Virus record (IMG/VR): IMGVR_UViG_3300022689_000070
Span: 1-52,458 of that record
Length of the DNA: 52,458 nucleotides
Strand: one strand, 5' to 3'
DNA from: a virus
Taxonomy: Duplodnaviria; Caudoviricetes
Shown: one piece after another, positions 1 through 51,879 of the stretch
Position numbering within the stretch: the stretch's first letter is position 1
Layout of the letters: every line of letters begins with the position of its first letter
The notes under the pieces: generated by a model
What the model was told of the DNA's origin: nothing
Databases searched by the model: none
The model's input: the letters and a program-made list of their open reading frames with translations, nothing else
Translations under genes and position numbers: made by a program

Positions 1-99
1 GCCCACCATTAACAGGAGATAGATAATGAGTGATGTTAAGAAACTCATGGAACAGGAGATGGAAAAAATAGAACTGTGTTGGTTTTGGTGTAAAGACAC
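1..99. repeat. Terminal direct repeat / circular assembly overlap (copy 1)
   Basis: 1-99 is identical to 52360-52458; 99 nt matches a typical assembler k-mer overlap. Confidence 0.95.
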
Positions 100-3562: not shown

Positions 3563-3615
3563 GGGACCCGGTGGTTACCGCCACCCATCACGCCGTAGTG
3601 ATGTCCGTGGGTCCC
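3563..3615 (+). other. Intergenic three-way-junction RNA structure
   Basis: GGGACCC/GGGTCCC closing stem with inner hairpins GGTGG/CCACC and CATCAC/GTGATG. Confidence 0.5.
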
Positions 3616-3634
3616 TCCTTTTAACCGGAGAACA

Positions 3635-4072
3635 GTGATGAAGTATATGTTTATAACCAACGTCGAATACCAACTTCTGGATCGCCCAATCATAGAGATC
3701 CTTGATATGCCACCCCTTGATGCTTACACGTTTACAAACGAAAAAGGGTTGCAAGGTGTTAGCACGACAGAAGCCCTAAGCAAGCAAACTATTAAAGCCC
3801 AGCACTTTGTTAACAGACTGGAGGGTCTGGATATTTGGGTGGGTTGTCATCCTCGCGTTGCTGATGCGTTACGCATTCAAGTCGAATGCTGGGGCATAAT
3901 GAATGAAGAGATAAATAAATTAAGCAGCGACTGCTACAAACTAAGAATAAAAAACCGTAAATTAAAAACAACAAAAAGGAACAACGATTTCTGGACGATA
4001 TTCAACCAATACGTCGAGGAAGTATTCACCAACCTTAACCACCAGATAGACGCGATGCCGGGAGTGCAGTGA
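3635..4072 (+). CDS. Hypothetical protein
   Basis: 145-aa ORF with GGAGAACAGTGATG start motif. Confidence 0.7.
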   Translation: MMKYMFITNVEYQLLDRPIIEILDMPPLDAYTFTNEKGLQGVSTTEALSKQTIKAQHFVNRLEGLDIWVGCHPRVADALRIQVECWGIMNEEINKLSSDCYKLRIKNRKLKTTKRNNDFWTIFNQYVEEVFTNLNHQIDAMPGVQ

Positions 4073-4257
4073 TGAAATCAGACCTAGAAGAACAGAAGCG
4101 CCAGATAGATAAAACCTACCAAGAGTACCTTTCGCAGCTGAATACGCTGCGCCTGAGAGGCTACGACTATTACCCAGACATTGATGGACCGTTTACGTGC
4201 GTACAGCTGATTGATAGCCAGATACGTCCTTACGGTGGCTTCAATGCCAAAGGGTGA
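4069..4257 (+). CDS. Small hypothetical protein
   Basis: 62 aa, GGAGTGCAGTGATG start motif. Confidence 0.65.
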   Translation: MMKSDLEEQKRQIDKTYQEYLSQLNTLRLRGYDYYPDIDGPFTCVQLIDSQIRPYGGFNAKG

Positions 4258-4489
4258 TTGGGCACGGGGCGACAAGTATTTTATAAAACATCCGACCGGC
4301 GCCACGATAAGCTGGGATGATAGCAAGGCATATGTTTTGTTATGGGTGGATAAAAAATCTTATCGTTTCCCGAACGCTACCATAGCCATCAAGGCTTTCG
4401 ATAAACTTAAGAAAAGACCGCACGACCAGACCGTGGAAGAATGGCTGGCTGATTACGAGGCGGCACTACAGGAGAACAGTGATGAGTGA
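4244..4489 (+). CDS. Hypothetical protein
   Basis: Likely start at ATG 4244 (MPKGDW) after GGTGG; fills the operon gap. Confidence 0.55.
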   Translation: MPKGDWARGDKYFIKHPTGATISWDDSKAYVLLWVDKKSYRFPNATIAIKAFDKLKKRPHDQTVEEWLADYEAALQENSDE

Positions 4490-4763
4490 TGAAGAAAGCT
4501 ACACAGCGAAAGACCTTATCAAGCACATGACTGAGGTGCAGGACGATATGATCAGCTGCTGCTTTAATCACAGTATCGACATAGAAGCCGCTCACGGGCT
4601 TAAACCTTACGACGTGCTGGTGCTGGCCCAGATGAGCATACTCGCCTTTTCTTACTACGCCGCAGAGGTAGTGGATGAACACACGCTAGTGACCATGTTG
4701 AAAAACTCAGCGGTTAAAGCAAAGGAGATACTTGACCATGGCGAAAATAAAACAGTCCACTAA
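4479..4763 (+). CDS. Hypothetical protein
   Basis: 94 aa, GGAGAACAGTGATG start motif. Confidence 0.7.
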   Translation: MMSDEESYTAKDLIKHMTEVQDDMISCCFNHSIDIEAAHGLKPYDVLVLAQMSILAFSYYAAEVVDEHTLVTMLKNSAVKAKEILDHGENKTVH

Positions 4764-5100
4764 GCATAAACAGTGGCTGCAGACCGTCGTTGAGTTCGCA
4801 GCGAAGCATGGGCCGGTGGTAAAAGGCCATGGCCGGGTCCAGATACATCACGTAGTGGGTCCGACGTATGTGCATAACAAGGTCCCAATCGGGCACTGGT
4901 TTTTATTGCCGTTGCCATTCGAGCTGCACGACGTGTCATCCAATCATCCGTGTAACGTCACTCACTTCCGTAAGCGCTTCACTGAAGAGCACGGGGAGCA
5001 ACGCATACTGTTTGAGTTGATGTGCGAAATCATACGCGCTGAGGGCGGCACGCTCCCGCCTGATGAAGCCCTGCAGGCAATACAGCAAACGAGGTACTGA
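4738..5100 (+). CDS. DUF968/Ref-like HNH-fold protein (Zn-binding cysteines degenerate)
   Basis: QIHHVVG..GHWFLLPL..LH..F...HG pattern typical of lambdoid nin-region proteins. Confidence 0.6.
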   Translation: MAKIKQSTKHKQWLQTVVEFAAKHGPVVKGHGRVQIHHVVGPTYVHNKVPIGHWFLLPLPFELHDVSSNHPCNVTHFRKRFTEEHGEQRILFELMCEIIRAEGGTLPPDEALQAIQQTRY

Positions 5101-5101
5101 T

Positions 5102-5542
5102 ATGCCGATATTAAACTACACTACCAGCGTAAAGGCAGAAAAAACGGTGAGTGAAATACAGAAAGCACTTGCTAAATCGGGCGCATCAAAAGTGATGTCC
5201 GAGTATGACGGCGAAGGGATATTGAAACACCTTTCATTCCAAATTGTCTGCAATAACATACCTGTTTTTTTCAGGCTTCCCGCACGTATAGATAACATCT
5301 ACGTCATCCTGCAGAACGATTCCGAGGTGCCCCGGAAATTAAAATCGCGTGAGCAAGCGAGCCGGGTAGCGTGGCGCATCATCAAGAACTGGATCGAGGC
5401 ACAGCTTGCGCTTGTTGAGGCAGAGCAGGCAGATATGGTAGAAGTCTTTTTGCCTTATGCACAGACTCATGGAGGCGACACGATATATCAGCTCGTCATG
5501 TCGAACCAACAAAAAATGTTAGGAGCACCAGATGGCAAGTAG
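5102..5542 (+). CDS. Conserved hypothetical phage protein
   Basis: MPILNYTT..EIQK.L..EQASRVAWRIIKNWIEAQLA pattern; GAGGT RBS before ATG 5102. Confidence 0.75.
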   Translation: MPILNYTTSVKAEKTVSEIQKALAKSGASKVMSEYDGEGILKHLSFQIVCNNIPVFFRLPARIDNIYVILQNDSEVPRKLKSREQASRVAWRIIKNWIEAQLALVEAEQADMVEVFLPYAQTHGGDTIYQLVMSNQQKMLGAPDGK

Positions 5543-6071
5543 AGACAGTGATGAGTACGGCACGCCACAAGGATTGTTCGATGTCCTGCACGATATGTTC
5601 AATTTTGAATTGGATGTCTGTGCGAGTTCAGTTAATCAGAAAGGTGTTGAGTACTGGACAAAGGAGGATAACTGCTTAACCAAGGACTGGCCCAAGGCCC
5701 CGGTGTTCATGAACCCGCCCTATTCGTCAGGTAATATAGGGAAGTTCATGGCAAAGGCCGTGGAGAGTTCCAAGACTGGTAGTCTGGTGGTGGCGCTGGT
5801 CAGGCAAGATCCATCCACAGCATGGTGGCAGTGTTGTGTTCACCCGCATGCAACCTACGTCGCCCAGTTTCGCAAGCGGTTACGGTTTGAGGGTCAGGCA
5901 GAAGGCGCAAATGACGCTTACAACTTCCCGGTGTGCTTAGTGATCTACGGCCCCAAACTTGCGGGACCTCCGACGACGCTATATCTTGACGAGCTTATCG
6001 ATACACTTTATTGGTGGCTCAGTGAAGGAGAGGCAGAAAGACATAGAGCAAGGCTTAAGGCGCTGGGCTGA
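5532..6071 (+). CDS. Phage N6-adenine DNA methyltransferase (Dam-like family)
   Basis: DEYGTP..F..LDVCAS..N..FMNPPYS motif set. Confidence 0.9.
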   Translation: MASRDSDEYGTPQGLFDVLHDMFNFELDVCASSVNQKGVEYWTKEDNCLTKDWPKAPVFMNPPYSSGNIGKFMAKAVESSKTGSLVVALVRQDPSTAWWQCCVHPHATYVAQFRKRLRFEGQAEGANDAYNFPVCLVIYGPKLAGPPTTLYLDELIDTLYWWLSEGEAERHRARLKALG

Positions 6072-6477
6072 GTGGGTTATTGCAAACCAAAAGCAGCTGC
6101 AGGTCCGGGCCGGGTATTCCGTCCCCGCCAGAACCGGGTGGCAATGCAGTAACTGCAAGAAGGAATACATCGAGCCTCCCCGGGACCTCAACAACCGACA
6201 CCAGAACAGATGCACCCGCTGCGGCTACGAGATTAAAGCCACCTTCATTGCCGGCGACTTTAATCACAATGACAAGATGGCGGAAGTCTACAACACCGGT
6301 ATTCAGATCATGCCGGTCGCTCAACGCACCGCTATTGTTTGGAAGTATCTCAGTCAGGAACCCCAGTCTAAGTTTGCCAAGAACCTCGGCGTCAGCACTC
6401 AGCACTTACAGCAGAATTTATCCCGTGCTTACTATTACTTGATGGGTTATCTCGACTGGAGAAAATATAACAAATAA
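6022..6477 (+). CDS. Antitermination Q-like / sigma70 region-4-like regulator with Zn ribbon
   Basis: LRRWAEW N-terminus, CxxC..CxxC, C-terminal HTH (FAKNLGVSTQHLQQNLSRA); last gene of the early-right operon; GTG start inferred. Confidence 0.6.
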   Translation: MKERQKDIEQGLRRWAEWVIANQKQLQVRAGYSVPARTGWQCSNCKKEYIEPPRDLNNRHQNRCTRCGYEIKATFIAGDFNHNDKMAEVYNTGIQIMPVAQRTAIVWKYLSQEPQSKFAKNLGVSTQHLQQNLSRAYYYLMGYLDWRKYNK

Positions 6478-6480
6478 GTG

Positions 6481-6509
6481 TTGAGGGGTGAGGCTTACTG
6501 CTCTACTAT
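6481..6509 (+). promoter_or_regulatory. Sigma70-like promoter in the pR'-like position
   Basis: TTGAGG (6481-6486), 17 bp spacer, TACTAT (6504-6509). Confidence 0.6.
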
Positions 6510-6514
6510 CAACG

Positions 6515-6590
6515 TGTCGATTGGTTATCGACGTCATCACTGTTCGCAGCGCCCCGGGTTGCTCAGCGGCTTCCCGGGGTTGCTGCACTT
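6515..6590 (+). ncRNA. Putative trans-acting antisense small RNA (seed UCAUCACUGUUC)
   Basis: Promoter upstream; hairpin GTCGAT/ATCGAC, unpaired TCATCACTGTTC (6534-6545), GC-rich hairpin 6546-6586; seed complementary to many gene starts. Confidence 0.65.
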
Positions 6591-6592
6591 AA

Positions 6593-7009
6593 TCACTTCA
6601 CTATCTTGAACACGCGTTTCACTCTTTTTCTTTTATGCGGGTTCTCAGTCACATCAACTATTGCCTTGGTCCAGCTATCCACGAACCGGTACCCGGCAAC
6701 AGCAACGTAATGGTTTGTCACGACCACGATGTAAGTTGACTTAAGGTCACGCTCCGGGGCCTGCAGCCACTGGTTAAAAGAGCAGTCACCCCATTCATAA
6801 TCCCAACGGTGACATTGCTTGACCTTGTAACCCAGCTCATGGATGACGCTGGTAAGCTCGTTGCAATACATGCCACGTATCTTTTTCTTTCCTGCATGCT
6901 TCAGCACCTGCTTGTAACTGCAGTTGGTCACGGCCATGATAGCCGTGGGTCCACAGAAGACCTCGGTGTCCTTGGGAAGCTTGGGCTTGTATAGTTTTGC
7001 TCTCATCAC
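6593..7009 (-). CDS. Papain-like/C39-like Cys-His-Asp peptidase-fold protein
   Basis: FCGPTAIMAVT ... YIVVVTNHYVAV...VDSW. Confidence 0.55.
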   Translation of the reverse strand: MMRAKLYKPKLPKDTEVFCGPTAIMAVTNCSYKQVLKHAGKKKIRGMYCNELTSVIHELGYKVKQCHRWDYEWGDCSFNQWLQAPERDLKSTYIVVVTNHYVAVAGYRFVDSWTKAIVDVTENPHKRKRVKRVFKIVK

Positions 7010-7254
7010 TGAGCCTCCTTCAGTATGGTTAATGCACCCTTGGTGATGCCGTGTTGGTTGCCGAAAGACCTGATGCGACGCACGGCCTTCTTCAGCGGGT
7101 AGTCGATGTCACGCAGGTAACGCGCATCGGATTTATTTATCTTGATCACCCGGACCGGGAAGTCTATCGATACACAAGAGATGTACTTGCGCCCCGCCTT
7201 GCTGATGACAACGCGGTGACCATTGTCGTTATGAAGTATTTGTACTTTCATCAC
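7006..7254 (-). CDS. Small basic hypothetical protein
   Basis: 82 aa, GGAGTGCAGTGATG start, coupled to 6593..7009. Confidence 0.7.
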   Translation of the reverse strand: MMKVQILHNDNGHRVVISKAGRKYISCVSIDFPVRVIKINKSDARYLRDIDYPLKKAVRRIRSFGNQHGITKGALTILKEAQ

Positions 7255-7284
7255 TGCACTCCAATTTATTTAAGATGAGGGATT

Positions 7285-9772: not shown

Positions 9773-9811
9773 CCAATACCGGATTAACTCCACAGCAACA
9801 GGAGAATTAAA

Positions 9812-9862
9812 ATGAGTGTATTTACTTTCTGCATGGCCGTTCAGGCGCTGACTAACTCATAA
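9812..9862 (+). CDS. 16-aa leader-type peptide MSVFTFCMAVQALTNS
   Basis: Strong AGGAG RBS; lies just upstream of a terminator preceding terL. Confidence 0.45.
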   Translation: MSVFTFCMAVQALTNS

Positions 9863-9887
9863 TCATGATCCTCTGTTCTACTCTTTC

Positions 9888-9915
9888 GGGGCCATCCGCT
9901 GGCCCCTATTTTTTT
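9888..9915 (+). terminator. Rho-independent terminator immediately before terL
   Basis: GGGGCCA-TCCGC-TGGCCCC followed by TATTTTTTT. Confidence 0.7.
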
Positions 9916-9919
9916 CTGA

Positions 9920-23098: not shown

Positions 23099-24867
23099 TG
23101 ACTAAGATACCTACATCATCCGATTTACAACGGACCACGCCCCAGTCAGGGAAGTCCATCGCTGCCGTTCCTCGCAGACAGTATGCCGGTGAAGGTCAGG
23201 GCGCACAGCAAATGGCTCAAGCCGTTCGCGGTGTAGGCAACGAGTTGTCTGAACTGGGTCTCGACTTTGTAGCGCTTGATAAAAAACGGAAGGAAAGAGA
23301 GAACCGTCTGCAGGTCACAAAGGCAAAAGCTTATTGGCAGCAGGAAGACATGCGTGCCCGGGCTGACCTGAGTCAGGATCAGGACTACAAAACATACGGC
23401 ACTCGCTACGAAGAGCGTATGAAGGAAGCGCGTGAAGTGGCACTGGGTATGGTCGACGACGAATACTCAAGCAACATCCTCGCTGAAGAGTTCAACACTG
23501 ACCTGACCCGTGGCTCTGTGACCATGCTTAAGAACTCACTGGAGAAGGAAGCCGAGGTGGGCCGCGCTGACATCGAGGACCAGTACGAACAGATCCTTGA
23601 GAACGCCAAACTGGCTGAAACAACAGCAGACAAAATGAACATCCTTTCCAATCTTGATCTGGTGTTGAGCGCCGGCAGGAAGAACGGATACATCAGTGCC
23701 GAGAAGGAAGAAGAAATGCTGGACAGGGGTAAAGAGTCCTTTGCTGACACGATGTACATTGCACTATCTCCTGAAGAGCAGCTTGATGTGCTTGCGAAAG
23801 AAGGCAACAACGGCCACTGGATAAACTACATACCAGCAGAGCGACGTGCTGCGTTAAAGGTTGCTGCTGAGAAAGCGGTCAAGGCTGAGAGCGAAGCCAA
23901 CGAAACAGACCGTCTCAAAGGTGAGGCTATACAGGAAGTCCTTTCCATGAAGGGAAGAGACATGACGCCGGAAGAGATGCAGGCTGAAGCCGAGCGTAAG
24001 TACGCCACGAGCGACCCGAAGAAATTCCTGTATCTGGAGTCACGCATCGCAGTACATAAAGCCCAAACCGAAGAAGCAGAAATTGATGCGGCTAACGACA
24101 CGTTTGACAAGTGGAGCAAGACCTTTACTCTCAACAAGAAAGATGAAACCTTTCTGAGCGAAGAAGGTGAAGCCGAATATTTCACGTTTGAAGACATTCC
24201 CAGTGCGGACCTCGAGATGATGAATGAAGCGCAGATACAGAACCTGCAAGCACTATCACAGGAAAAGGTCCTTGCGCGATCTGCTCCCGCTTACGATGAC
24301 CGCGCTAACAAGAATATGTTGATGAACAAAGTTAAGCAGGCAGAAGAGGGGCATATAAGGTGGGCCGAGGTCGCTAAATATTATGGCGAAATATCTGCAT
24401 CACTCACTGTAAAAACCCGGGAAGAGTATGACCAGATACTAATGGAAAAATCGGTACCTGCTAGGTTTGAAAGCGAATATGACGCCAATCAGCAGCTGGA
24501 AGCGAAGCTTGAATACATGAACATCAATGATGAAAACATCAACAACATCAAGCGCAACATGAATGACTGGCAGCGTCGTTACTATGAACAGAAAGGTGAA
24601 GCGCCATCTGAAAAGGTCTTGCAAGAGTACGTGGACGGTTTGTTTATACGTTACGATGCTCCGGGCTTAGGCCGCGACGAGTACGTTTACATGGATCCGA
24701 CTGTTGATCCTCGTACCGCACTATCTGTTTTCAGCGCGCATAAGAGAGCAAACAATAACGAGGAACCATCCGAAGAGCAGATGAAGATGTACATGGATCA
24801 GTACAAGCGAGAGGGCCGGGTGCAACTGGTTAAACCAAAAGAGCGAACCATAAAAGGTGGACGTTAA
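23098..24867 (+). CDS. Internal virion/ejection protein (T7 gp15-like)
   Basis: 589 aa helical protein, MTKIPT start, synteny. Confidence 0.7.
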   Translation: MTKIPTSSDLQRTTPQSGKSIAAVPRRQYAGEGQGAQQMAQAVRGVGNELSELGLDFVALDKKRKERENRLQVTKAKAYWQQEDMRARADLSQDQDYKTYGTRYEERMKEAREVALGMVDDEYSSNILAEEFNTDLTRGSVTMLKNSLEKEAEVGRADIEDQYEQILENAKLAETTADKMNILSNLDLVLSAGRKNGYISAEKEEEMLDRGKESFADTMYIALSPEEQLDVLAKEGNNGHWINYIPAERRAALKVAAEKAVKAESEANETDRLKGEAIQEVLSMKGRDMTPEEMQAEAERKYATSDPKKFLYLESRIAVHKAQTEEAEIDAANDTFDKWSKTFTLNKKDETFLSEEGEAEYFTFEDIPSADLEMMNEAQIQNLQALSQEKVLARSAPAYDDRANKNMLMNKVKQAEEGHIRWAEVAKYYGEISASLTVKTREEYDQILMEKSVPARFESEYDANQQLEAKLEYMNINDENINNIKRNMNDWQRRYYEQKGEAPSEKVLQEYVDGLFIRYDAPGLGRDEYVYMDPTVDPRTALSVFSAHKRANNNEEPSEEQMKMYMDQYKREGRVQLVKPKERTIKGGR

Positions 24868-27800
24868 TGGCCGAAGATGATTATTTTTATCCTGACGACG
24901 AACAACAAAACCGGGGCATCCCGGTTTCTGTTTATAACGCGGCCAAGTTAAATCCTGACAAAGAAGCCCAGTCAGTCAAGCTTGCGCGTGAGCGCGGCCT
25001 TCCCTCCGATGTTGTTAGTCGTAACTACGATGAAGTAAAACGCAACTCTGTACTTGAGCAATTCCAGAAGATGGGTCTGGCTGACTCATCACCTAAAACC
25101 AATGAATGGATTAGCGAGCCTGACAACGCCAAGATAGCGTATGACGACATCGACAGTCTTGTGCAGATCGAAGACACCTTCAAGGACACTACGTCACTGT
25201 GGGAAGACTTAGGCACTGCGTTCACCAACTTCGGTGACACAACAAAACTCAACTTAGAGAACACCTTCCTTGGTGCTGGTGTTGCTGCTGCCGACATGAT
25301 GATTCCTGATAAGGAAGAATTTCAGACAGGCCTCGAGGGCGGTTTTCAGTCTGTCATGAAACGTGCGCTGGGAGGTTTGCCGTTACCTCAGAACTTCATA
25401 AAGAGCATGATCACTGCCGCAGAATCTGTTGGCATCTTCGAGGAAGAGGATCTGCTCCGCCTGAAGGACGACTACATCAACCTGACGCTGGAAGAGATAC
25501 AGGCAAACGAGAAAGAGATACAAGCACTCACGCCTGAAGACCTGAGCATGTGGCAGTCTGGTATTCGCGGCGGTATCCAGTCCGTGGTCGAGCAGGCCCC
25601 GGGCATGGCCATGTCGATGATCACCCGCAACCCGTCATGGATGCTGACGCCGATGGCCGCTACTGTGTATGCCCGTTCGTATGGCGAGGCACGCAAAGAA
25701 GGCTACGACGAAAATATGGCGGCGCTGTATGCAACGCTACAGGCTGGAACGGAATGGCTGACAGAAAAGATACCTGCAGACAAGTTTCTGAAGATACCCG
25801 GCCTGCAGGAAGGCTGGAAAAAGACCATGAACGAGGTCGGCAGTTTCTTTCTTACTGAGCAGATCACTGAGCAGGTGGCGACGTTCTCACAGTCACTGAT
25901 TGACTACGGCTTCGAGTTGGATGAAGAGCTTGCTCAAGCTGAGAGCATAGGCGACTGGATTGACATCTTTGGTACACGCGCTGCAGTCACTTCTATTGCG
26001 ACGTTAACCGGTACTGCTGTTCAGGGCGGCGCGGCTGTGGGTGTTGGCACCATAACAAACAAGTTCACCAAGAAGACAGGCCGTGACACGGTCGACACTG
26101 CCAAACACCTCAATGAACAGGAGCGCATCGACAAACTTATTGGACTGTTCCAGACCACCGCTGTTAAGGACCGTGACCCAGAATCACTGAGAAGCTTCGC
26201 CAAGAAGGTCAGCGAGGACACGCAGTCACAGGATGTGTACATCGATGCCAACCGGGTAGAAGAGCTTCAGGAGCAAGGCGTCATTCTGCCGAAGTCTATT
26301 ATGGACGAGTTGGAAGCAGCGCAAGAATCGGGTGACGACATTGCTATCCCGGCCAGCGACTTCTTTACCGACGTGGCCACCAGTGAAGAGCTGGCAACCC
26401 AACTGCGTGACCACATCAAACTGTCAGCTGATGGCACATTCAAGAACGACTTCATTCGCAACGACGGCTACCTGAATCAACTGTTGAAAGATGCTGAAGC
26501 AGATCAGGAAACATTCGACGAGTCACAGCGCATCTATAACGAGATACGTGACAAGCTCATTGCTACCGGTCGTCAGGGTTCGTTCACCTCCAAATATTCC
26601 GCGCAGATCATCCCTGCCTACATTACTCGCGCATCGAAAGAATACGGTGTGCCTGTAGCCAAACTGTACGAAGACATGAACTTCGACATTGTGGGTCCTG
26701 AAGGACGTCCTGCTGCTGGTACACCTTCCACGCAAATAGAGGACTTGACTGTTGGCGAAACTGCTACTTTCTATGACCCAAAAGGTGAGCCGGTTGATTT
26801 CACTGTTAAAGCTGTAAGCGATCAGGGTGGCGTCATTGTTGAAGATGAGAACGGCGAAGAGATATTGATTGGTGATGAGTATTCATTGGCCAGCGCTGCT
26901 TCAGGCGATTACGTGCTGGAGACCATGGAAGGAAAAACTGTCAACTCTCTTTCAGACGAGGAGCTTGATGCGGGTATAGTACGCACTCGTGAAAAGCTGC
27001 AGGCAAAAAAAGAAGCAGGTCAGTCTGTTGCTGGTATGGCGCGTGAACTCAACGCACTCACCATCGAAGCAAGACGTCGTGATGTTTCCCGTGGAACATC
27101 TGGCACCACCATCATGGACCAGCCCCCTGCATACAAAGAGGCGAAGGTTTTTTACGAGGAAGCGCGTGACGTATTCCTTGAAGCGCTCCCTGAAGATGCT
27201 GGTTTTGAAGACGTCATGGTCATGATGGATGACTTTAGTCCCGGCTATCAGAACGTCTTGATGCAGCTGCAGGAAAATGACTGGCTGGGTTTTGACTACC
27301 CGGCTCAAGCCATCTCTGCATTATTCAGCGAAGACATCGAGCAGTATGAAATATCACAAGGCCTGAAGGCTGCACTGGGCCGGGTTGTAAACGGCACCGC
27401 TCAGTTGTCACAGGAAGAACAGGTCAGCCTGTCTCAGGACGAGTTCATTGACTTCTGGAAAGACTGGGAGCAAAGCACTTACGAAATCCCATTTGCTGAT
27501 GGCATGCGTGCGGTCATGAACAATGAGATTAATGACGGCCAGAATTTCGCCATGATCGAGCTTGGCAAATGGAGTGACGGCATCATGCTTAAGTCGATCC
27601 TGTCCTCGCAGGCACGCCGTGGTAATGGTCAGGCTGGCCTTGATGCGCTAACCGACATGGCTGACAAGTACGGCATGAACCTGTACCTGCAGCCAGAGGC
27701 CTTCGGCACACTGGAAGGCAAGATGACCACCAAGCAACTCGAAAAGTGGTACAAGAAAGCTGGTTTTATTGAGCAGTCTAACGGTATCTTTAAAAGAGAG

Positions 27801-30800
27801 CCTGTGGCGACCTTAATGCAGGGCAGGGCTACTCAGGCATTAACTTACGAAGAGGTGCCGTCCAGACGCAAACCACGCAAGACAAGGAAGGTTTATAAGC
27901 TAATGCGTGTCCGCGCCTCACACCCGGGCATGTACTTCCCGCTTTACGCCAAACCAGAAGGCGGCGCCCTGACAGGGTTCACTGCTGGCAAATGGTTCAA
28001 GGCGGAAGTTAACAAGGTCCGTATTGGCAGCAAGGACTTGGCTCATCGCCCGGGACTCCATGGTGTGAACCTTCCTGTTTTCGATCAAGGCAAAGGAACG
28101 GTCAAAGGCCAGCAGCGTGTCTGGGTAGAAATTGAGATACCAGACATCAACACAAAGACTCAGAAAGAAAGCGACAACTCCGAGTTGCTTAAGAACGGTA
28201 TGCGTAAGGGCATTACTGATCGACTAATCGATGTCAACGAGTCCTACGATTACAAGACCAACCCAAACGCATCCAATGATGCTGGCGGCTGGCCTATCGC
28301 AGGCTCAATGAAAATAAATCGCGTAGTACCTGACAGTGAAATTGCACAGATACTGAAAGATGCCGGCTTGAGCAAACAGGTCGAGAACTCCATGACCCAG
28401 ATCGATGAGGGTAAGGCCGAGGCGTACAATCAGCAGCAGCCCGTCTCACTGCAGCAGGGCGAGTTCGATGAGTACGAGGGCAGCGACGTGGTCCTGTCAG
28501 ATCGCCGCGCTAATCACTTGATCGAATACTTTGGCGACAGGAGAAACAGTAACGCGCACATGATCGACATGGCACCGGAAGATTTCCTCGAGTTGGCTCC
28601 AAAGTATTTCGACTTCGACAAAGACACCGAGGAACGCATCGAGGCCGGCAAACTGAAACCAACCTTCGGCATGCTGGATGAGGAAGAGCTGAGAAACCTC
28701 AAGCAACCCATCTACCTGCTGGTTAAGAAAATCGGAGACAACAAGTTCAAGGTGCTGGGCCATGAAGGCCGTCACCGCATGTACGCACTGCAGGACGCCG
28801 GAATTCGCAACGTCCCGGTCGTGCTAATTAACTACGAATCCACTGACGTCATTGGTCCTAATCCAGTATTGGAACAGCAGAAAGGTTTGCTAGGTGACCG
28901 CACTGATACACTGACAATCCCGTCCGAGCCTGTTGCTATAAACGAAGACAACCGCGGTCAGATAATGAAGCGCTTTGGCGACACACGTCGTGGTCCGGTC
29001 TTGTATCAACGCCCGAAGTACAAGGTGAAAAAGAACTCCAAGGGCAAGTACATGGGTGCGCCGAACTGGGTTAAGAAACCAAGCGACCTAGCCAAGATCA
29101 GAAAACTCATGCGGGAACTGACCAAGCTGGGTGAAGATGGTCGTATGTGGTACGAGGACTCAGCTGCAACGATACTGAAAGCGGCTAACAATGATCCTGT
29201 GCTGGCTGAAAAGCTTATCCAGCTGGTGGCTATCTACTCTCCACAGAACAGCATTGCGCCGAACATGTCTCAGGCCATCAAAGCCTACAACCAGTGGGCA
29301 ACCGGGGTACCGAGAGATAAGTTCAATGTGCGTGCCTTCGGTGGTGTGGGAAAGGAAACACTCGACGATAAAGCCATCGCTGTGCTGTACGACAACACGG
29401 TATGGAGCGGCAGGAAGACGAACAGTTTCTACCTGAACCTGATGCACGAGATTGTGCAGCAAGTGGGCGAGAGCGGTCTGGATCAGTTAGCACTACCGGC
29501 TGACCTGCGCCAGAAGGTGGATGAGGTTGTCACCGTGGACTTGTGGGTGCGTCGTGCGCTGGGTTACGACAATGACATGACCTCCGACGACAAGGGGTCC
29601 GGCGCTTACTCATTCGCTGAGAATGAACTCACCCTAATCGCTGACGAGATGGGATGGAAGCCTCATCAAGTACAGGCCGCACTGTGGACCGGCATCAAAT
29701 CACGATACGAACACCCGCAGGTAAAGGCCGACACGATCGAGGAAAGCGTCAAGAAAGGCTACTCCGAGTACAAGAACAAGAAAGGTAAAGCTAAATGGTC
29801 CGCCCCAACCAGCGCAGAGAACAAGCGCCTGCACATGGAGTTGTGGCGTAAGCACGCACTGGCGCTGGACCCAGCTGTCGCCCGGGAGCAGGTAGCCGCT
29901 GCGAAGTTCTCTTTCTCAGACGCATTATCCGCTATGGTGGAAACCATCACATGGGAAGCTATCCCGGCCCCAGAGCTGGATACGGACATCATGAAGGCGC
30001 CGGCCATACTGCAGGCGGAGTTCACCGAGAAGGCCCGTCGTTTGCTGCTGGACGAGAATGGTAACGACCAGCTGGCCATGCTGGTAGGTGCGCCTATCGC
30101 GGCCTCCGAGGCAGGCACAGGCGGTTTTGAGGGCGCTATCAGCCCGAACAATATCACGACCATCATTCCTACCAAGCCTGTCGGCACGTACAGCAGGGAA
30201 GAGGTCAGCGCCTATGCCAGAGCCATCCAGTACATCTATCGACAGAAAGCGGTGCCATGGTCAAGAGCTGATGCCAATATCTCCTTTGCCAAGGACTACG
30301 GTGTGTACAAGCCGGGTGGCAAGCGAGCCATGCGTAAGTTCGATTCCTACGAGGAAGCCGTTGCCTACGCAAAAGGACTCAGCTACGAGGCCGAGGTTCG
30401 AGGTGGCAGCAACTACCGTGGCGTGGTTGTCACGTTTGAGGAGGCCTTGAGCGAGCAGGCAGAGGGGGATTTTTATACCCAATTACAGGATGTTTTTGGG
30501 GAATATGTCGGGTATACTAAGACGTCCGACAATGAAATATTGATCGGCAACTTCCGTGACGAGAACGGTATTCCGTTCATGATGTCGGATACCGAGTTCA
30601 CTGACGCAATAGGAGGATTAAACAGTGGTGTTAATTACCAAATCAGAGAGTCAAAAGAGGTTGGCCTCGAGGGTGACTACGGACCAGAGCAAGACTGGGT
30701 CGCAGATCCGAAAGGGGAAAGTCTCCTCGCTGGAGAAGGCCTCGCCGGATCACCCGATTTACAAGCGTGGCTTGATAATCGGTGGGAAGCATTCGGGCAA

Positions 30801-42973: not shown

Positions 42974-43186
42974 CTAAGCTTTCTCTCTCAGACTTTTGTT
43001 GGCGACGAGGAACGGACCCCAAATAGTGTGGATGGTGGTGTATTTATTTTCCTCCTCCTCCTTTTGCTTAAACCTGTACCTCTTTCTTTCCTGCAGAAAA
43101 TGATACCGGCATAACAGCCCATACTTACGGTTGCCTTTTTTCGGTAGCCGGGTCGTGCAGCCCCTGACCTTGCAGTAGTCAATCAT
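42974..43186 (-). CDS. Small Zn-finger-like protein
   Basis: CKVRGC..GLLCRYH; start at ATG 43186. Confidence 0.55.
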   Translation of the reverse strand: MIDYCKVRGCTTRLPKKGNRKYGLLCRYHFLQERKRYRFKQKEEEENKYTTIHTIWGPFLVANKSLREKA

Positions 43187-43391
43187 CTTGGTTCTCCCGA
43201 ATGCACCGAACCATCCCGTCATCCGACATGCCCTGCCGGCGAAAGAACTCCACCATGTGCAGGAACATGTCAGACATCCGGGTGTCACGATGTTTCGCTT
43301 TGCGGCATTCATCACTGCAGAACTTCCCGTGCGGTTTTTGAGCCTCAAAGGAACGCTGGCAGTGAAGACATACCTTGGGATAGGTTTTCAT
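43179..43391 (-). CDS. Small Zn-finger protein
   Basis: CLHCQRSF..KFCSDECR. Confidence 0.65.
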   Translation of the reverse strand: MKTYPKVCLHCQRSFEAQKPHGKFCSDECRKAKHRDTRMSDMFLHMVEFFRRQGMSDDGMVRCIRENQDD

Positions 43392-43416
43392 GTTTGTTGC
43401 GTCTGGACGCTACAAA

Positions 43417-45784: not shown

Positions 45785-45906
45785 GGCTCCTGCACCTCCA
45801 CAAAAAGAAAAAGGTAAAGCGCCACGAACGGGCGCGTAACGGGTGGAAATTGGTGTAAATATCTGCGCCTCATAGCTTCATGCAGCAGGTGGTTATCTTT
45901 TCTCAT
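45781..45906 (-). CDS. Small hypothetical protein (MRKDNHLL...)
   Basis: GGAGGACAGTGATG start motif at 45904-45917 defines the start inside the track ORF. Confidence 0.55.
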   Translation of the reverse strand: MRKDNHLLHEAMRRRYLHQFPPVTRPFVALYLFLFVEVQEP

Positions 45907-45919
45907 CACTGTCCTCCGA

Positions 45920-46135
45920 TTAACTAACGCAGGTAACATCGTTTTCAATAAGGTCCGTAATACGCAGACCCTCTTTGATGCCCTCGTCTTGGTAAATCTT
46001 CTTCCCCTCTGCGTGGGCGTCATGATAGTTGGCGTGGCGAGAAACTTCTTGCCACTCGTATTTTCCGCTATTCAGTTTGTTGTCTGGGTGCGGCGGTTCA
46101 ACGCACACAAACCTTTCTAAAATAAAATACATCAC
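45920..46135 (-). CDS. Small hypothetical protein
   Basis: AGGAGAACAGTGATG start motif. Confidence 0.7.
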   Translation of the reverse strand: MMYFILERFVCVEPPHPDNKLNSGKYEWQEVSRHANYHDAHAEGKKIYQDEGIKEGLRITDLIENDVTCVS

Positions 46136-46156
46136 TGTTCTCCTATTGCTTGAGTG

Positions 46157-46693: not shown

Positions 46694-47896
46694 TCACGCC
46701 ACTTTATCCAGCAGCTTGCCGGCCTTGCGCTCAAGGTCCAGACGTTCATCCTGTCTGCCCTTGCTACGCGCATGTGCTGTGATTCCTTGCACGAATTGCC
46801 AGACGGACTTCGGCTTGTCACCTTCTTCCTCGACAACGCAGTTAATCACTTCACGGACCTCTTTCTTGTTGAAGCCGCGATTACGCAGGAATGACTCCCG
46901 GTCATCGTCGTTGTAGGCCACGACAGCTTCCTTGGCTCGCTGTACGCCCTGTATTAAGGCCGCATCATTCGACTGGATGAAAGACTGCAGTGCCGGTCTG
47001 GCGGACTCCAGAAAGCGACGTGGTGCATTCTTGGAGTGGGTCAGGCGGATCTCCTGATACCCTTCCACGCCCCAGAGCATACGGTTGGCGCACGAGGCGC
47101 GGAAGTAAAAACAGGCTATGCCGAATGAGCGGTTGCCAACCTCGGAGTTCCAGACGTAGAAACCGCGGTACACGATGTCGTCTTCCAGCTCGCCCTGTTT
47201 GTTACGGAACGTGCCCACCTTTATCGGATGGGTGTGGTCCACGAGGAACAAGAACACATCCCGGTCACTGGCAAACAACGTCGTGGTCTGCTTGGTGATA
47301 GGCGCCTGCGTGTCATAGATCATGCTGTTACTATTCAGCAGGCCCGGGACCGTCCAGCAAGTATCACCGGCACCGTTGCCAGCCAGATTCCTGACCGCAT
47401 CCACCACGGCGTGGTCATAGATACGACCGTAATCAGGACCGGTAGCAGCACGCAGCTCCGTATTGCCGTTGCGCGTGGCATACACCTTGATGGCCTCAGA
47501 CCTGACTTCACTGATGCCCCACTGCAGGTTAATGCCTGCGATTGTGCCCGGGAGTGTCCGCAGGTACTTGGCCGGCGCTTTCACCAGCTGGCATATCTGT
47601 CCAAACGAGTAGTGGTTTGGATGGGTTACGAAGTCACCCTGCTCACCCGGGATAATGAGATCCAGATTCTCCGGGTCATCATTCTGGGCACTCACCTTGA
47701 TGTCGCGCACGTCGACTATCTGGTTGAACGAGTTGTCAGCAGCGTCTTTACAGAACGTATGCAGGCTGTCCAAGTCCAGAAACTTCTGGTCATCTGGACG
47801 GTGAAACCACTGGGAACCGATAGCGTGACTCCAGCCACCGGCATCTGCGTTGACGCCATGTTGCGTCGGGGTTATATCAATTACTTCACTCATCAC
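46694..47896 (-). CDS. DUF932-family protein
   Basis: QWFHRPDDQKF..RAATGPDYGRIYD..LFASDRDVFLFL..RGFYVWNSEVG..CANR. Confidence 0.85.
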   Translation of the reverse strand: MMSEVIDITPTQHGVNADAGGWSHAIGSQWFHRPDDQKFLDLDSLHTFCKDAADNSFNQIVDVRDIKVSAQNDDPENLDLIIPGEQGDFVTHPNHYSFGQICQLVKAPAKYLRTLPGTIAGINLQWGISEVRSEAIKVYATRNGNTELRAATGPDYGRIYDHAVVDAVRNLAGNGAGDTCWTVPGLLNSNSMIYDTQAPITKQTTTLFASDRDVFLFLVDHTHPIKVGTFRNKQGELEDDIVYRGFYVWNSEVGNRSFGIACFYFRASCANRMLWGVEGYQEIRLTHSKNAPRRFLESARPALQSFIQSNDAALIQGVQRAKEAVVAYNDDDRESFLRNRGFNKKEVREVINCVVEEEGDKPKSVWQFVQGITAHARSKGRQDERLDLERKAGKLLDKVA

Positions 47897-47912
47897 TGTT
47901 TCTCCTTGACGC

Positions 47913-48671: not shown

Positions 48672-49054
48672 GACACTGCCTCCAGTTCTTTGTAGCCAGA
48701 GCTTTCGCCGTAGACAGCGAGATGCTGTTCAACGGTGGTGTACTTCCAAGTGTGGCCGTTGGTAGCCCACTGTGGTGGATATGAGTTCAAGTAGGCCTCG
48801 TATGGAGCGTCCAGACTGGTCAGCTCAGCAATGCGCCAGCCGGTACCAGTAGAGTGCGGTGCGCTGGTCTTGTAGTTTCCGGCCAAAGTAATGCCGCCAA
48901 GGTCCGACTGGAAGGAAACCACTCTTTTTCCGTCCCGGTCGGTGTAGAACCCATAGGTACCGGCCTTCGAGATGAAGACACGGAACCCCTTGGACAGAAG
49001 CTTGGATGCAAGCTCCTGTATTTTCTGTCGCTTATAATCAATCTTACTCATCAC
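48668..49054 (-). CDS. Hypothetical protein
   Basis: 128 aa, AGGGGGCAGTGATG start. Confidence 0.7.
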   Translation of the reverse strand: MMSKIDYKRQKIQELASKLLSKGFRVFISKAGTYGFYTDRDGKRVVSFQSDLGGITLAGNYKTSAPHSTGTGWRIAELTSLDAPYEAYLNSYPPQWATNGHTWKYTTVEQHLAVYGESSGYKELEAVS

Positions 49055-49060
49055 TGCCCC

Positions 49061-49372
49061 CTATTTCTTTTTCGCCGTAACAACGACGCGGTTAACTTCA
49101 GACTGCTTGGTGTTAGCTGAGACGATCTGGCGAGACGCGCCCAGCTTCTCAGCGATACCTTTCCAGTTGACCACTTTCTTGAAGCCCTGAGTGAACACGA
49201 CACGGAAGAGCTTACCTTCCGCTGGGTCACCACCCGTCAGGTTGAAGAGCAGGCCTTCGGCCCCCTTCAGCTGCTTTTTCAGGTCATCAATATCAGCGCG
49301 TAATTGGCCGATGTGATCTGCGATCGCTTCCGGGGAAGCTTCTACTAATTTTGCATTTTTAACTTTCATCAC
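49061..49372 (-). CDS. Hypothetical phage protein (coiled coil plus small beta domain)
   Basis: 103 aa, AGGAGAACAGTGATG start. Confidence 0.75.
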   Translation of the reverse strand: MMKVKNAKLVEASPEAIADHIGQLRADIDDLKKQLKGAEGLLFNLTGGDPAEGKLFRVVFTQGFKKVVNWKGIAEKLGASRQIVSANTKQSEVNRVVVTAKKK

Positions 49373-49386
49373 TGTTCTCCTGTTGG

Positions 49387-50833: not shown

Positions 50834-50843
50834 ACAGGAGACA

Positions 50844-51125
50844 GTGATGAAGATTGAAAAAGACATACCCATCCCATCAACTCAGGCTTCTAACATGGCC
50901 GACACGGAGCTGTACGACACAATGAAACAGCTCGAGGTGAGGGACTCGTTCGCTATCAAGCTGGACGATGAACTTCGTGTTGACCACCCGGGCGTTAATC
51001 GCGTCAAGGCCGGGACTATACGCATGACCGTGGCAAGGTATGGGGAAAGACTAAAACGCCGTCATACGACCAGAATCATCCGTCAGGACGGAAAAACAGA
51101 GCTGCGTGTTTGGAGGACGAAATGA
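50844..51125 (+). CDS. Small putative DNA-binding phage protein
   Basis: MKIEKDIPIP..LEVRDSF..LRVWRTK pattern; AGGAGACAGTGATG start. Confidence 0.75.
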   Translation: MMKIEKDIPIPSTQASNMADTELYDTMKQLEVRDSFAIKLDDELRVDHPGVNRVKAGTIRMTVARYGERLKRRHTTRIIRQDGKTELRVWRTK

Positions 51126-51640: not shown

Positions 51641-51879
51641 AAGCAAATGACTTAATTAATCCAAAATGGATAGAGGACGAGCAATCAGGGTGTAAATGGC
51701 TTAATGAAGGATTAACAGTACGTGACCATATTGCTATTCAGGCAATGCAAGGGATTATTTCTATTTATGATGCCAGAGACCTTCAAAACCAAAAAGACCC
51801 TGAATGGATAGCAATGCAGTCTTATCGACTAGCCGATGCCATGATTACCGAGTCCAACAAGGAGAATAGTGATGGGTGA
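51637..51879 (+). CDS. Conserved small phage protein
   Basis: GLTVRDHIAIQAMQG..SYRLADAM motif common in phages. Confidence 0.8.
   Translation: MKANDLINPKWIEDEQSGCKWLNEGLTVRDHIAIQAMQGIISIYDARDLQNQKDPEWIAMQSYRLADAMITESNKENSDG

What the first reader, a model, noticed from the sequence alone, without database searches (positions are those of the whole stretch)
6481..6590. Candidate phage small RNA that silences a regulon of early genes by pairing with their start codons
Seen: right after the Q-like gene is a sigma70-type promoter (TTGAGG-17-TACTAT) and a ~75-nt non-coding unit. It consists of hairpin GTCGAT/ATCGAC (6516-6532), an unpaired linker TCATCACTGTTC (6534-6545) and a GC-rich hairpin (6546-6586). 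The linker is the exact reverse complement of GAACAGTGATGA, the SD-spacer/start-codon sequence of many genes in this genome. Perfect 11-12 nt matches occur at the starts of 3635, 4479, 46135(-), 47896(-) and 49372(-). Several imperfect sites differ in ways that keep G-U pairing (GGACAGTGATGA 45906-, GGGCAGTGATGA 49054-, GACAGTGATGA 50844, GAATAGTGATGG 51869), which fits RNA-RNA pairing better than protein-DNA binding. Established: bacterial sRNAs and P1/P4 c4/CI RNAs repress targets through unpaired seeds. Inference: one sRNA, at the position of lambda pR'/6S RNA, shuts off translation of a dozen or more early/middle genes, either at the early-to-late switch or as an RNA substitute for the missing CI repressor.
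Basis: partly seen in the sequence, partly recalled or inferred. Interest (0 to 1): 0.93.

Follow-up and report, generated by a model that had tools for sequence, protein, structure and literature searches.

The report
Candidate phage RNA masking gene starts
Between two converging gene blocks of a lone lambda-like phage lies the most stable RNA fold of the genome, and its only unpaired stretch is the exact mirror of the start-site sequence shared by about 14 early genes; this may be a regulatory RNA, but nothing yet shows that it is made or works.

Summary
The sequence observation holds. At 6516-6586 two hairpins flank a 12-nt linker (6534-6545), which is the exact reverse complement of GAACAGTGATGA. 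That 12-mer is part of a shared translation-initiation region, GGAG-N1-3-CAGTG-ATG-A, found at about 14 early gene starts and at no late gene start. The match is not chance. The identity stops exactly at the 12 nt, and those 12 nt coincide with the only open stretch of the strongest 75-nt fold in the genome.

- The promoter matches only 8 of 12 consensus positions.
- Neither strand has a U-tract after the GC hairpin.
- The G-U "covariation" is what chance gives (9 of 21 changes keep pairing).
- The "Q-like" label rests on sub-threshold hits.
- The motif is also in sense orientation for the adjacent minus-strand two-gene cassette, where it opens an SD-less 39-codon ORF.

No related locus could be retrieved, so conservation is untested, and there are no RNA data.

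My odds are: anti-start-site RNA about 0.38, orphan or vestigial minus-strand gene start about 0.30, and structural 3'-end element with a functionless match about 0.17. It is a testable candidate, not a finding.

The parts
6481..6509 (+). Promoter-like pair TTGAGG-17-TACTAT. It would place +1 near 6516.
   Evidence: Read. It matches 8 of 12 consensus positions and is not listed by the scan, which needs 9. Matches of this quality occur once per 617 nt of strand.
6516..6532 (+). 5' hairpin with a 6-bp perfect stem (GTCGAT/ATCGAC) and a 5-nt loop. It forms on either strand.
   Evidence: It is the only perfect 6-bp stem between 6400 and 6700. The genome has 64 such stems, one per 820 nt.
6534..6545 (+). 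Unpaired 12-nt linker TCATCACTGTTC. It is the reverse complement of the shared start-site 12-mer, so on the minus strand it reads as the motif itself.
   Evidence: Exact match. Unpaired probability is 0.87-0.96 on the + strand and 0.51-0.58 on the - strand. Similarity to the other motif sites tested does not extend beyond 12-15 nt in ungapped alignment; the one longer gapped alignment, to the 4474 region, scores no higher (25, shuffle maximum 23).
6546..6586 (+). GC-rich hairpin: outer stem GCAGC/GCTGC, inner stem CCCCGGG/CCCGGGG. No U-tract follows on either strand.
   Evidence: Not reported as terminator-like. The 6516-6590 stretch is the most stable 75-nt fold among 5,239 sampled windows.
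6022..6477 (+). Last gene of the rightward early block. It encodes a 151-aa protein with CxxC...CxxC and a C-terminal HTH resembling sigma region 4 (the 'Q-like' gene).
   Evidence: Pfam Sigma70_r4_2 at E 0.003, below the cut-off. PHROG 79 'Q-like' at E 6.9e-5 over 44 aa. Only two relatives are known, at 80% and 44% identity.
6418..6537 (-). 39-codon ORF opened by the motif's ATG. It has no GGAG upstream, the hairpin covers about +4 to +21, and its last 20 codons run antisense through the Q-like gene.
   Evidence: It ends at a TTA Leu codon of the Q-like frame.
6593..7006 (-). 137-aa gene of the minus-strand cassette. Its start carries the motif core (GCTCAGTGATGA, 7014-7003). Its stop lies 6 nt before the GC hairpin.
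   Evidence: PHROG 3754 at E 1.3e-4. No relative apart from itself.
7006..7251 (-). 81-aa first gene of the cassette. Its start carries GTGCAGTGATGA (7259-7248). A promoter-like site lies upstream at 7309-7282.
3630..3641 (+). Perfect 12/12 target at the start of a 144-aa gene, preceded by a branched hairpin (3563-3614), a T-rich tail and GGAG.
4474..4485 (+). Perfect 12/12 target at the start of a 93-aa gene. The GTGATGA element is doubled here (4479-4492).
49366..49377 (-). Perfect 12/12 target at the start of a 102-aa gene.
46129..46140 (-). 11/12 target at the start of a 70-aa gene.
47890..47901 (-). 11/12 target at the start of a 399-aa gene (PHROG 1362).
45903..45914 (-). Target with 11 Watson-Crick pairs and 1 G-U, at the start of a 41-aa gene.
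49048..49059 (-). Target with 10 Watson-Crick pairs and 2 G-U, at the start of a 127-aa gene.
50839..50850 (+). Target AGACAGTGATGA at the start of a 92-aa gene, right after a canonical terminator (50794-50832).
51864..51875 (+). Target GAATAGTGATGG at the start of a 94-aa gene.
5543..5554 (+). Motif copy AGACAGTGATGA inside codons 4-8 of the Dam gene and out of frame. It is not a start codon.

Best explanation
**Proposed mechanism.** The + strand RNA of 6516-6590 is a structured element that displays a 12-nt anti-start-site sequence between a 5' hairpin and a very stable 3' hairpin. This sequence is certainly part of any rightward early transcript that runs past the last early gene. It may also be made as a short RNA from the weak promoter-like site at 6481-6509.

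The exposed linker would pair with positions -8 to +4 of the mRNAs that carry GGAG-N1-3-CAGTG-AUG-A. Three sites pair perfectly, six more form 10-12 contiguous pairs if G-U is allowed, and about five share only the 9-nt core. Pairing would block 30S binding and so turn down a set of mostly orphan early genes once the distal end of the early operon has been transcribed.

**What is shown and what is inferred.**
- Shown: the sequence, the fold, the exact complementarity and its non-randomness, and the restriction of the motif to early gene starts.
- Inferred: that a discrete stable RNA accumulates, that it pairs in trans, and that this represses translation.
For: 1. The exact 12-mer has four copies. 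By arithmetic, about 0.006 copies are expected for one given 12-mer in 2 x 52,458 positions. The motif family gives 18 matches against 5.3 +/- 2.5 in shuffles, and 0 of 100 shuffles reach 18.
2. The motif sits on the start codon of 14 plausible genes. All lie in the early regions 42,974-52,156 and 3,630-7,259, and none lies in the late block 7,480-42,300.
3. Similarity to the other motif sites tested ends at 12-15 nt in ungapped alignment, so this is not a segmental copy of another gene start in this genome.
4. The 12 nt coincide with the only open stretch between two hairpins. Unpaired probability on the + strand is 0.96, 0.94, 0.87 and 0.87 in four contexts of 75-351 nt. On the - strand it is 0.51-0.58.
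5. 6516-6590 folds at -39.5 kcal/mol. None of 5,239 sampled 75-nt windows reaches that; the best outside this locus is -35.4. Perfect 6-bp stems occur only once per 820 nt, yet one starts 1 nt from the 12-mer.
6. Predicted duplexes with the perfect sites are -19.6 to -19.9 kcal/mol, against a background of -7.8 +/- 3.1 over 34,946 windows.
7. Precedent at the same map position: lambda 6S RNA binds Hfq and has one lambda early-operon target, and the 74-nt StxS arises from early termination of the late-promoter (PR') transcript (passages; abstract).
Against: - There is no U-tract after the hairpin on the + strand, so no intrinsic terminator and no Hfq-type 3' end. This phage does have canonical terminators elsewhere: at 9888-9915 and at 50794-50832, read (the scan does not list that one, its 16-nt loop being above the limit).
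- The promoter matches only 8 of 12 positions and has no TG extension. Such matches occur once per 617 nt of strand.
- The motif is in sense orientation for the adjacent minus-strand cassette. 'Hairpin then motif' also occurs in sense at 3563-3641 and 50794-50850.
- The seed does not extend into the anti-SD, which is the most conserved part of the targets.
- There is no covariation signal: 9 of 21 differences give G-U and 12 of 21 give mismatches.
- Energy alone does not single out the start sites. Four unrelated windows score -19.2 to -20.6.
- If the RNA is made only as a 3' UTR, one anti-site faces about 5 sites on its own transcript and about 8 on the leftward one.
- There is no Rfam family, no relative to test conservation, and no RNA data.
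Confidence: 0.38

Rival explanations
1. **Orphan or vestigial minus-strand gene start.** The 12-mer is simply one more sense-strand copy of the family's start-site sequence. It lies at the downstream end of the minus-strand cassette (81-aa gene, 137-aa gene, 3' hairpin). It is either left over from a neighbouring gene lost by deletion or illegitimate recombination, or it still opens a poorly translated 39-codon ORF. On this reading it has no RNA-pairing role.
For: - All 12 other CAGTGATGA copies are in sense orientation for local transcription. This one is in sense for the cassette, whose last stop codon is 47 nt upstream.
- Both cassette genes use the same start-site core.
- A stable hairpin followed by the motif recurs in sense at 3563-3641 and 50794-50850.
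- An ATG-initiated ORF of 39 codons follows the motif.
- The cassette gene has no relative anywhere, which fits a recently acquired insert.
- Another motif copy that is not a start codon exists at 5543.
Against: - There is no GGAG. The bases upstream are CTGC, part of the hairpin stem, whereas 11 of the 14 real starts have GGAG (one more has GGGG).
- The spacing from hairpin to motif is 0 nt, against 14-15 nt with a T-run at the two sense examples.
- A 6-bp hairpin covers about +4 to +21 of the ORF.
- Twenty of the 39 codons are the same-codon antisense frame of the Q-like gene, and the ORF ends at a TTA Leu codon. Its openness is therefore a frame effect.
- No similarity beyond 12-15 nt (ungapped) to any other start region tested in the genome.
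- A decaying remnant would not be expected to keep all 12 consensus positions. Only 3 of the 14 working starts do.
- The exact fit of the 12-mer to the open linker, and the adjacent 5' hairpin, would be coincidences.
Confidence: 0.3
2. **3'-end structure between convergent transcription units.** The two hairpins act as a barrier to 3' exonucleases or as a weak or factor-dependent terminator for the rightward early operon and the minus-strand cassette. Alternatively they are part of a 6S/StxS-like short leader of a late promoter served by the Q-like protein. On either version the 12-mer match has no function of its own.
For: - The element fills the 115-nt gap between the converging stops at 6477 and 6593.
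- It is the strongest local fold of the genome on both strands, with z = -4.64 and -4.61.
- Its position after a putative late regulator mirrors lambda-type PR'/tR' units (passages; abstract).
Against: - It leaves the exact 12-mer unexplained. About 0.006 copies are expected genome-wide by arithmetic, and fewer within intergenic DNA.
- There is no U-tract on either strand.
- The genes downstream of the putative late promoter are on the opposite strand for about 660 nt.
- The Q identity is not established: sub-threshold Pfam and PHROG hits, and a best PDB sequence hit to a SigF fragment at E 0.077.
- TerS and TerL have promoter-like sites of their own, and a canonical terminator lies at 9888-9915.
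Confidence: 0.17
3. **Minus-strand start-site mimic.** The 3' UTR of the cassette mRNA displays the start-site 12-mer between hairpins. It would act as a decoy for whatever recognises this sequence: ribosomes, a RegA-like translational repressor, or the + strand RNA itself.
For: The same two hairpins form on the minus strand. The cassette transcript has no terminator before the motif.
Against: On the minus strand the start-codon half of the motif is predicted to be largely paired, with a mean unpaired probability of 0.51-0.58. No candidate binding protein was identified. No precedent was checked.
Confidence: 0.06

Closest known systems
StxS (74-nt sRNA of Shiga-toxin phages) and lambda 6S RNA, both short transcripts from the late promoter PR' just downstream of gene Q
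   Same: The map position is the same, directly after the last regulatory gene of the rightward early operon. The size is similar (about 75 nt). Both known RNAs have been shown to pair with mRNAs. According to the preprint, 6S binds Hfq and has one lambda early-operon target (passages; listing and start of abstract).
   Different: Those RNAs end at a strong intrinsic terminator and start at a strong constitutive promoter. Here there is no U-tract and the promoter match is 8 of 12. The genes that follow are on the other strand. The protein upstream is not a demonstrable Q. There is no Rfam hit and no sequence likeness.
P1/P7 c4 RNA, P4 CI RNA and P22 sar RNA (phage immunity and antisense RNAs; named from my own recall)
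   Same: They are small structured phage RNAs whose exposed loops or linkers pair with ribosome-binding regions or repeated short target sequences in the same genome.
   Different: As recalled, they act on one operon (ant, or the P4 left operon), not on a dozen dispersed start sites. No covariance model in Rfam 15 matches this locus at gathering score, or at E up to 10 within 6400-6700.
T4 RegA (a translational repressor protein that binds many early start sites) and T4 RegB (which cuts GGAG in early mRNAs). Recalled; the T4 review PMC3014915 was seen only in a search listing.
   Same: The logic is the same: one factor shuts off many early genes through a feature shared by their translation-initiation regions.
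   Different: Those factors are proteins. Here the proposed factor is an RNA that reads the shared sequence by base pairing.
3'UTR-derived enterobacterial sRNAs (class recalled; CisR, from the prtV 3'UTR, seen in the listing)
   Same: The seed lies in the 3' UTR of the last gene of an operon and is followed by a stable hairpin. An own promoter would not be needed.
   Different: Known members carry the mRNA's intrinsic terminator with a U-tail for Hfq. That is absent here.

Membership tests
Any described RNA family (Rfam 15, which as I recall includes phage antisense RNAs of the c4 type) | Match to the family covariance model at gathering score | tested here: not met
   Whole window: only a tRNA at 52272-52363. 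Region 6400-6700 at E up to 10: four chance-level hits, the best at E 0.51 to an insect lncRNA region.
Hfq-type trans-acting sRNA | Unpaired seed complementary to target start regions | tested here: met
   Three other sites pair 12/12. The seed's unpaired probability is 0.87-0.96.
Hfq-type trans-acting sRNA | Rho-independent terminator with a 3' U-tail | tested here: not met
   The hairpin at 6546-6586 is followed by ACTTAATCACTT. It is not listed by the terminator scan.
Hfq-type trans-acting sRNA | Own promoter or a defined processing site, and a detectable discrete RNA | tested here: inconclusive
   The promoter-like site matches 8 of 12. No sequencing run was listed, so there are no RNA data.
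Lambda-type PR'/tR' unit (6S RNA, StxS) | Lies directly downstream of a Q antiterminator gene | tested here: inconclusive
   The position is met (stop at 6477). The Q identity rests on PHROG 79 at E 6.9e-5 over 44 aa and a sub-threshold Sigma70_r4_2 hit. There is no PDB relative. The family has 3 members.
Lambda-type PR'/tR' unit (6S RNA, StxS) | Strong intrinsic terminator that ends the short RNA, with late genes downstream on the same strand | tested here: not met
   No U-tract. The next two genes (6593-7251) are on the minus strand, and TerS starts only at 7480.
This genome's own start-site family (GGAG-N1-3-CAGTG-ATG-A) | GGAG (or GGGG) 1-3 nt upstream of CAGTG | tested here: not met
   The bases upstream of the minus-strand copy are GCGCTGC. 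Eleven of the 14 gene-start copies have GGAG and one more has GGGG.
This genome's own start-site family (GGAG-N1-3-CAGTG-ATG-A) | Opens a credible protein-coding ORF | tested here: inconclusive
   The ORF has 39 codons, 20 of them antisense to the Q-like gene in the same-codon frame. The 12-mer scans turned up no related locus; the 39-aa product itself was never used as a query.

The most novel reading that the evidence does not exclude
A phage makes a small RNA, from a weak promoter or by processing of the early operon's 3' end, whose single exposed 12-nt seed is the mirror image of a start-site cassette shared by a dozen or more accessory early genes. One RNA would then switch off a whole temporal class at the level of translation initiation. 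That would be an RNA counterpart of T4 RegA, and would extend the sRNA role of the lambda 6S/StxS locus to control of the phage's own gene classes.
Probability: 0.35. Interest if true: 0.8.

Novelty: new variant of a known kind. Interest (0 to 1): 0.5.

Why it matters
If the RNA is real, it would show that a phage can time a whole class of genes with a single base-pairing RNA that reads a sequence built into their start sites. Known phage regulatory RNAs act on one or a few targets, and class-wide translational shut-off is known only for proteins. It would also explain why about 14 unrelated orphan early genes keep nearly the same 9-12 nt around their start codons. The seed and target pair could be re-used as a simple orthogonal translation switch.

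If instead it is an orphan gene start, the locus is an ordinary scar of mosaic phage evolution. Either answer can be reached with a Northern blot and a few reporter fusions.

Tried and rejected
**Relatives (none usable)**
- Phage records: near, distant and protein searches found nothing for the locus, the 151-aa protein or the 137-aa protein.
- E. coli genomes, near search: no match.
- Plasmids, protein search: no match.
- Viral contigs, all 8 scans used:
  - the 137-aa protein, the 151-aa protein, the 399-aa protein and alignment A2 gave no relative;
  - TerL gave 16 loci at 45-53% identity that lack the early region and the motif;
  - RecT gave 80 loci at 61% identity or less, with no shared neighbours and no motif enrichment;
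  - the linker pattern gave 6 chance hits, and the seed-plus-hairpin pattern gave 0.
- Metagenome contigs, both scans used: A1 found nothing, and the seed-plus-hairpin pattern gave 6 chance hits with no homology.
- Genome contigs, both scans used: A1 and A2 found nothing.

**Sequencing runs.** None was listed and no RNA holder was listed.

**Ideas rejected**
- The cassette as a compositionally foreign island: no GC break is seen.
- The minus-strand copy as a segmental duplicate of another start region: ungapped similarity ends at 12-15 nt.
- Shared late-promoter motifs with other intergenic regions: only chance k-mers appear. About 0.7 chance 12-mers are expected for this 123-nt region, and 3 non-motif ones were seen.
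- The 11-mer shared with 42290: there is no hairpin there.
- An inversion between inverted motif copies: there is no + strand copy to the right of the cassette.

**Supplements.** The supplementary files of the papers were not consulted. Target lists for lambda 6S RNA may be there.
Full report
**1. The genome**

The window is a whole 52,458-bp contig with a 99-bp terminal direct repeat. It is therefore most likely a circular or circularly assembled genome of about 52.36 kb, with 49.8% GC.

The layout is lambda-like.
- **Leftward early block (about 50,431 to 42,469, minus strand).** It carries two HNH endonucleases, a RecT/Bet-like annealing protein and an exonuclease VIII-like protein.
- **Rightward early block.** It starts with a promoter-like site at 50554-50582 and a 64-aa ORF, followed by a canonical terminator at 50794-50832. 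It then runs across the contig ends through an O-like replication gene (1675-2439), a Dam methylase (5532-6071) and a 151-aa protein (6022-6477).
- **Minus-strand two-gene cassette.** It runs from 7251 to 6593, with a promoter-like site at 7309-7282.
- **Late block on the + strand.** It starts with a P22-gp3-like small terminase at 7480 and TerL at 9920.

No close relative exists in any collection I could search (section 6).

**2. The observation**

- TTGAGG (6481-6486), a 17-nt spacer, then TACTAT (6504-6509).
- GTCGAT/ATCGAC (6516-6532).
- TCATCACTGTTC (6534-6545).
- A GC-rich hairpin at 6546-6586, with outer stem GCAGC/GCTGC and inner stem CCCCGGG/CCCGGGG.

The + strand RNA folds as hairpin, open linker, hairpin. 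The energy is -39.4 kcal/mol, z = -4.64, and 0 of 200 shuffles fold as well. The minus strand folds almost as well (z = -4.61). The 6516-6590 stretch (-39.5) is more stable than any of 5,239 sampled 75-nt windows of the genome; the best window outside this locus reaches -35.4.

**3. What the motif is**

GAACAGTGATGA with up to 2 mismatches occurs 18 times, against 5.29 +/- 2.50 in shuffles. None of 100 shuffles reaches 18. The contexts show that it is the 3' part of a shared translation-initiation region, GGAG-N1-3-CAGTG-ATG-A.

Of the 37 AGTGATG sites in the window, I read 14 as real gene starts. Each has an ORF of 41-399 aa that fits the gene map. They are 3630, 4064, 4474, 50839 and 51864 on the + strand, and 49377, 49059, 47901, 46140, 45914, 45338, 43320, 7259 and 7014 on the minus strand.
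- Eleven of the 14 have GGAG upstream, and one more has GGGG.
- All lie in the early regions. None lies in the late block 7,480-42,300.
- Of the 10 proteins scanned (9 of them from motif-bearing genes), only the exonuclease VIII-like gene matched a PHROG family, so these are mostly orphan accessory genes. add PHROG 3754 (weak) for the 137-aa cassette gene and PHROG 1362 for the 399-aa gene.
- For the exonuclease VIII-like gene, the longer form that starts at the motif's ATG aligns from residue 14. This supports that start.

One further copy (5543-5554) lies inside Dam codons 4-8, out of frame, and is not a start. Part of it is explained by the S-D-E coding of the Dam N-terminus.

**4. The copy at 6534-6545**

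It is one of four exact copies. By arithmetic, a given 12-mer is expected 0.006 times in 2 x 52,458 positions, so this match is not chance. A caution applies: some 12-mer of this 123-nt region matching somewhere in the genome is expected about 0.7 times, and three such non-motif matches do occur. What is improbable is a match to this particular multi-copy sequence.

Similarity to the other motif sites tested stops at 12-15 nt in ungapped alignment; one gapped 33-column alignment to the 4474 region scores no higher (25, shuffle maximum 23). Those 12 nt are exactly the stretch left open between the two hairpins. On the + strand the mean unpaired probability is 0.96, 0.94, 0.87 and 0.87 in contexts of 75, 85, 171 and 351 nt. 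On the minus strand it is 0.51-0.58, because the start-codon half pairs with a segment upstream of the big hairpin. Perfect 6-bp stems with 3-8-nt loops occur once per 820 nt in this genome, yet one begins 1 nt from the 12-mer. So the 12-mer looks as if it is deliberately displayed, and displayed slightly better on the + strand.

**5. What weakens the sRNA reading**

a. **Orientation.** All 12 other CAGTGATGA copies are in sense for local transcription. This one is in sense for the minus-strand cassette, whose last stop (6593) is 47 nt upstream. 'Stable hairpin then motif' recurs in sense at 3563-3641 and 50794-50850. There, however, 14-15 nt with a T-run and GGAG separate hairpin and motif. 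Here the spacing is 0 nt and the upstream bases are CTGC.

b. **Promoter.** The promoter-like site scores 8 of 12, has no TG extension and fails the scan. Matches of that quality number 170 on both strands, one per 617 nt of strand.

c. **Terminator.** No T-run follows the hairpin on either strand, although the phage has canonical terminators at 9888-9915 and, as read, at 50794-50832. A 75-nt unit is therefore not delimited, and an Hfq-type 3' end is missing.

d. **G-U argument.** In the 11 imperfect gene-start copies, 21 positions differ from the 12-mer. Nine give G-U and 12 give mismatches (my count). One change in three would preserve pairing opposite U or G even without transition bias, so this is no evidence for RNA pairing.

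e. **No anti-SD.** The seed does not reach the anti-SD.

f. **Energy.** Duplex energy alone is not specific. The perfect sites give -19.6 to -19.9 kcal/mol, against a background of -7.8 +/- 3.1 in 34,946 windows, but four unrelated windows reach -19.2 to -20.6.

g. **'Q-like' label.** It rests on PHROG 79 at E 6.9e-5 over 44 residues and Sigma70_r4_2 at E 0.003, below the cut-off. The best PDB sequence hit with any meaning is a SigF fragment at E 0.077. In 1.84 billion representatives the family has only two other members.

**6. What weakens the minus-strand gene-start reading**

- The 39-codon ORF has no SD.
- A hairpin covers about +4 to +21 of the ORF.
- Its last 20 codons run through the antisense same-codon frame of the 151-aa gene and end at a TTA Leu codon. 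The ORF's openness is therefore a frame effect.
- A decaying remnant would not be expected to keep all 12 consensus positions. Only 3 of the 14 working starts do.

**7. Conservation could not be tested**

No search of phage records, E. coli genomes or plasmids found the locus or its flanking genes. All 8 viral, 2 metagenome and 2 genome scans gave either nothing or chance hits. No sequencing run was listed. Rfam has no family for the locus.

**8. Comparison with what is known**

The closest functional analogues are the short RNAs made just after gene Q of lambdoid phages.
- Lambda 6S RNA is 194 nt with a processed form of about 121 nt. [quoted passage not shown]
- StxS, 74 nt, arises from early termination of the late-promoter (PR') transcript in Stx phages and acts as an sRNA.

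For the preprint 10.1101/2024.10.31.621285 I read passages. For PMC7547250 I saw only the search listing and the start of the abstract.

The present element shares position and size with these RNAs. It does not share the strong promoter, the intrinsic terminator, a demonstrable Q, or co-oriented late genes.

From recall, P1 c4, P4 CI and P22 sar share the principle of an exposed RNA stretch pairing with ribosome-binding regions in the same genome. T4 RegA and RegB share the logic of class-wide early shut-off through a feature of start sites, but they are proteins.

**9. Verdict**

The 12-mer needs an explanation, and two explanations are close.

I put the + strand anti-start-site RNA first, at about 0.38. 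Three things favour it: the identity is confined to the open linker, the adjacent 5' hairpin is otherwise unexplained, and the + strand is the more open one. It may be made as a stable 3' end of the early transcript or from the weak promoter.

An orphan or vestigial minus-strand gene start follows at about 0.30. A purely structural 3'-end element with a functionless match is at about 0.17. A minus-strand decoy is at about 0.06.

As it stands it is an attractive, cheaply testable candidate and not a demonstrated regulator.

Noticed in passing
window 1-99 and 52360-52458: There is a 99-bp terminal direct repeat, so the contig is probably a complete, circularly assembled genome of about 52.36 kb. 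Motif hits at 25 and 52384 are the same site counted twice.
   Followed up: partly
window 52271-52367 (+): A tRNA-like gene scores 47.8 bits in Rfam, but 38 nt stand where the model has a 17-nt anticodon arm. ARAGORN reports an undetermined tRNA with a four-letter anticodon, ttaa. It could carry an intron, be degenerate, or be a suppressor-like tRNA.
   Followed up: partly
window 9784-9919 (+): A promoter-like site (TTAACT-18-TAAAAT), a 16-codon ORF with a good SD (9813-9862), and a canonical terminator (9888-9906 plus a T-run) lie directly in front of the TerL start at 9920. This looks like a leader or attenuator, or a short RNA, inside the late block. It resembles a PR'/tR' unit more than the locus under study does.
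   Followed up: no
window 3563-3641 (+): A branched hairpin has an inner stem, CAUCAC/GUGAUG, that contains a partial copy of the start-site core and its complement. It lies 15 nt upstream of a perfect motif copy, and an alternative pairing with the real start codon is conceivable. It is the next most stable fold outside the 6516-6590 locus and the 30851 window.
   Followed up: partly
window 5543-5554 (+): A 12-mer identical to the 50839 start-site copy lies inside Dam codons 4-8, out of frame with Dam. It opens only a 42-codon overlapping ORF.
   Followed up: partly
window 24867-37094 (+): A 4,075-aa ORF carries an N-terminal LPD22 domain ('large polyvalent protein') and a DUF7178 domain. It is probably an injected polyvalent protein of the DarB type.
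   Followed up: partly
window 50554-50850 (+): A 10-of-12 promoter-like site, a 64-aa ORF in the position of cro, and a canonical terminator (CCCGGGG...CCCCGGG plus T8) lie immediately before the motif-bearing gene at 50847. This is a tR1-like arrangement and implies antitermination in the early operon. None of the ORFs I scanned matched a repressor or integrase family.
   Followed up: partly
window 4474-4492 (+): The start-site element is doubled in tandem (GTGATGA-GTGATGA), so the upstream ORF stops inside the second copy.
   Followed up: no
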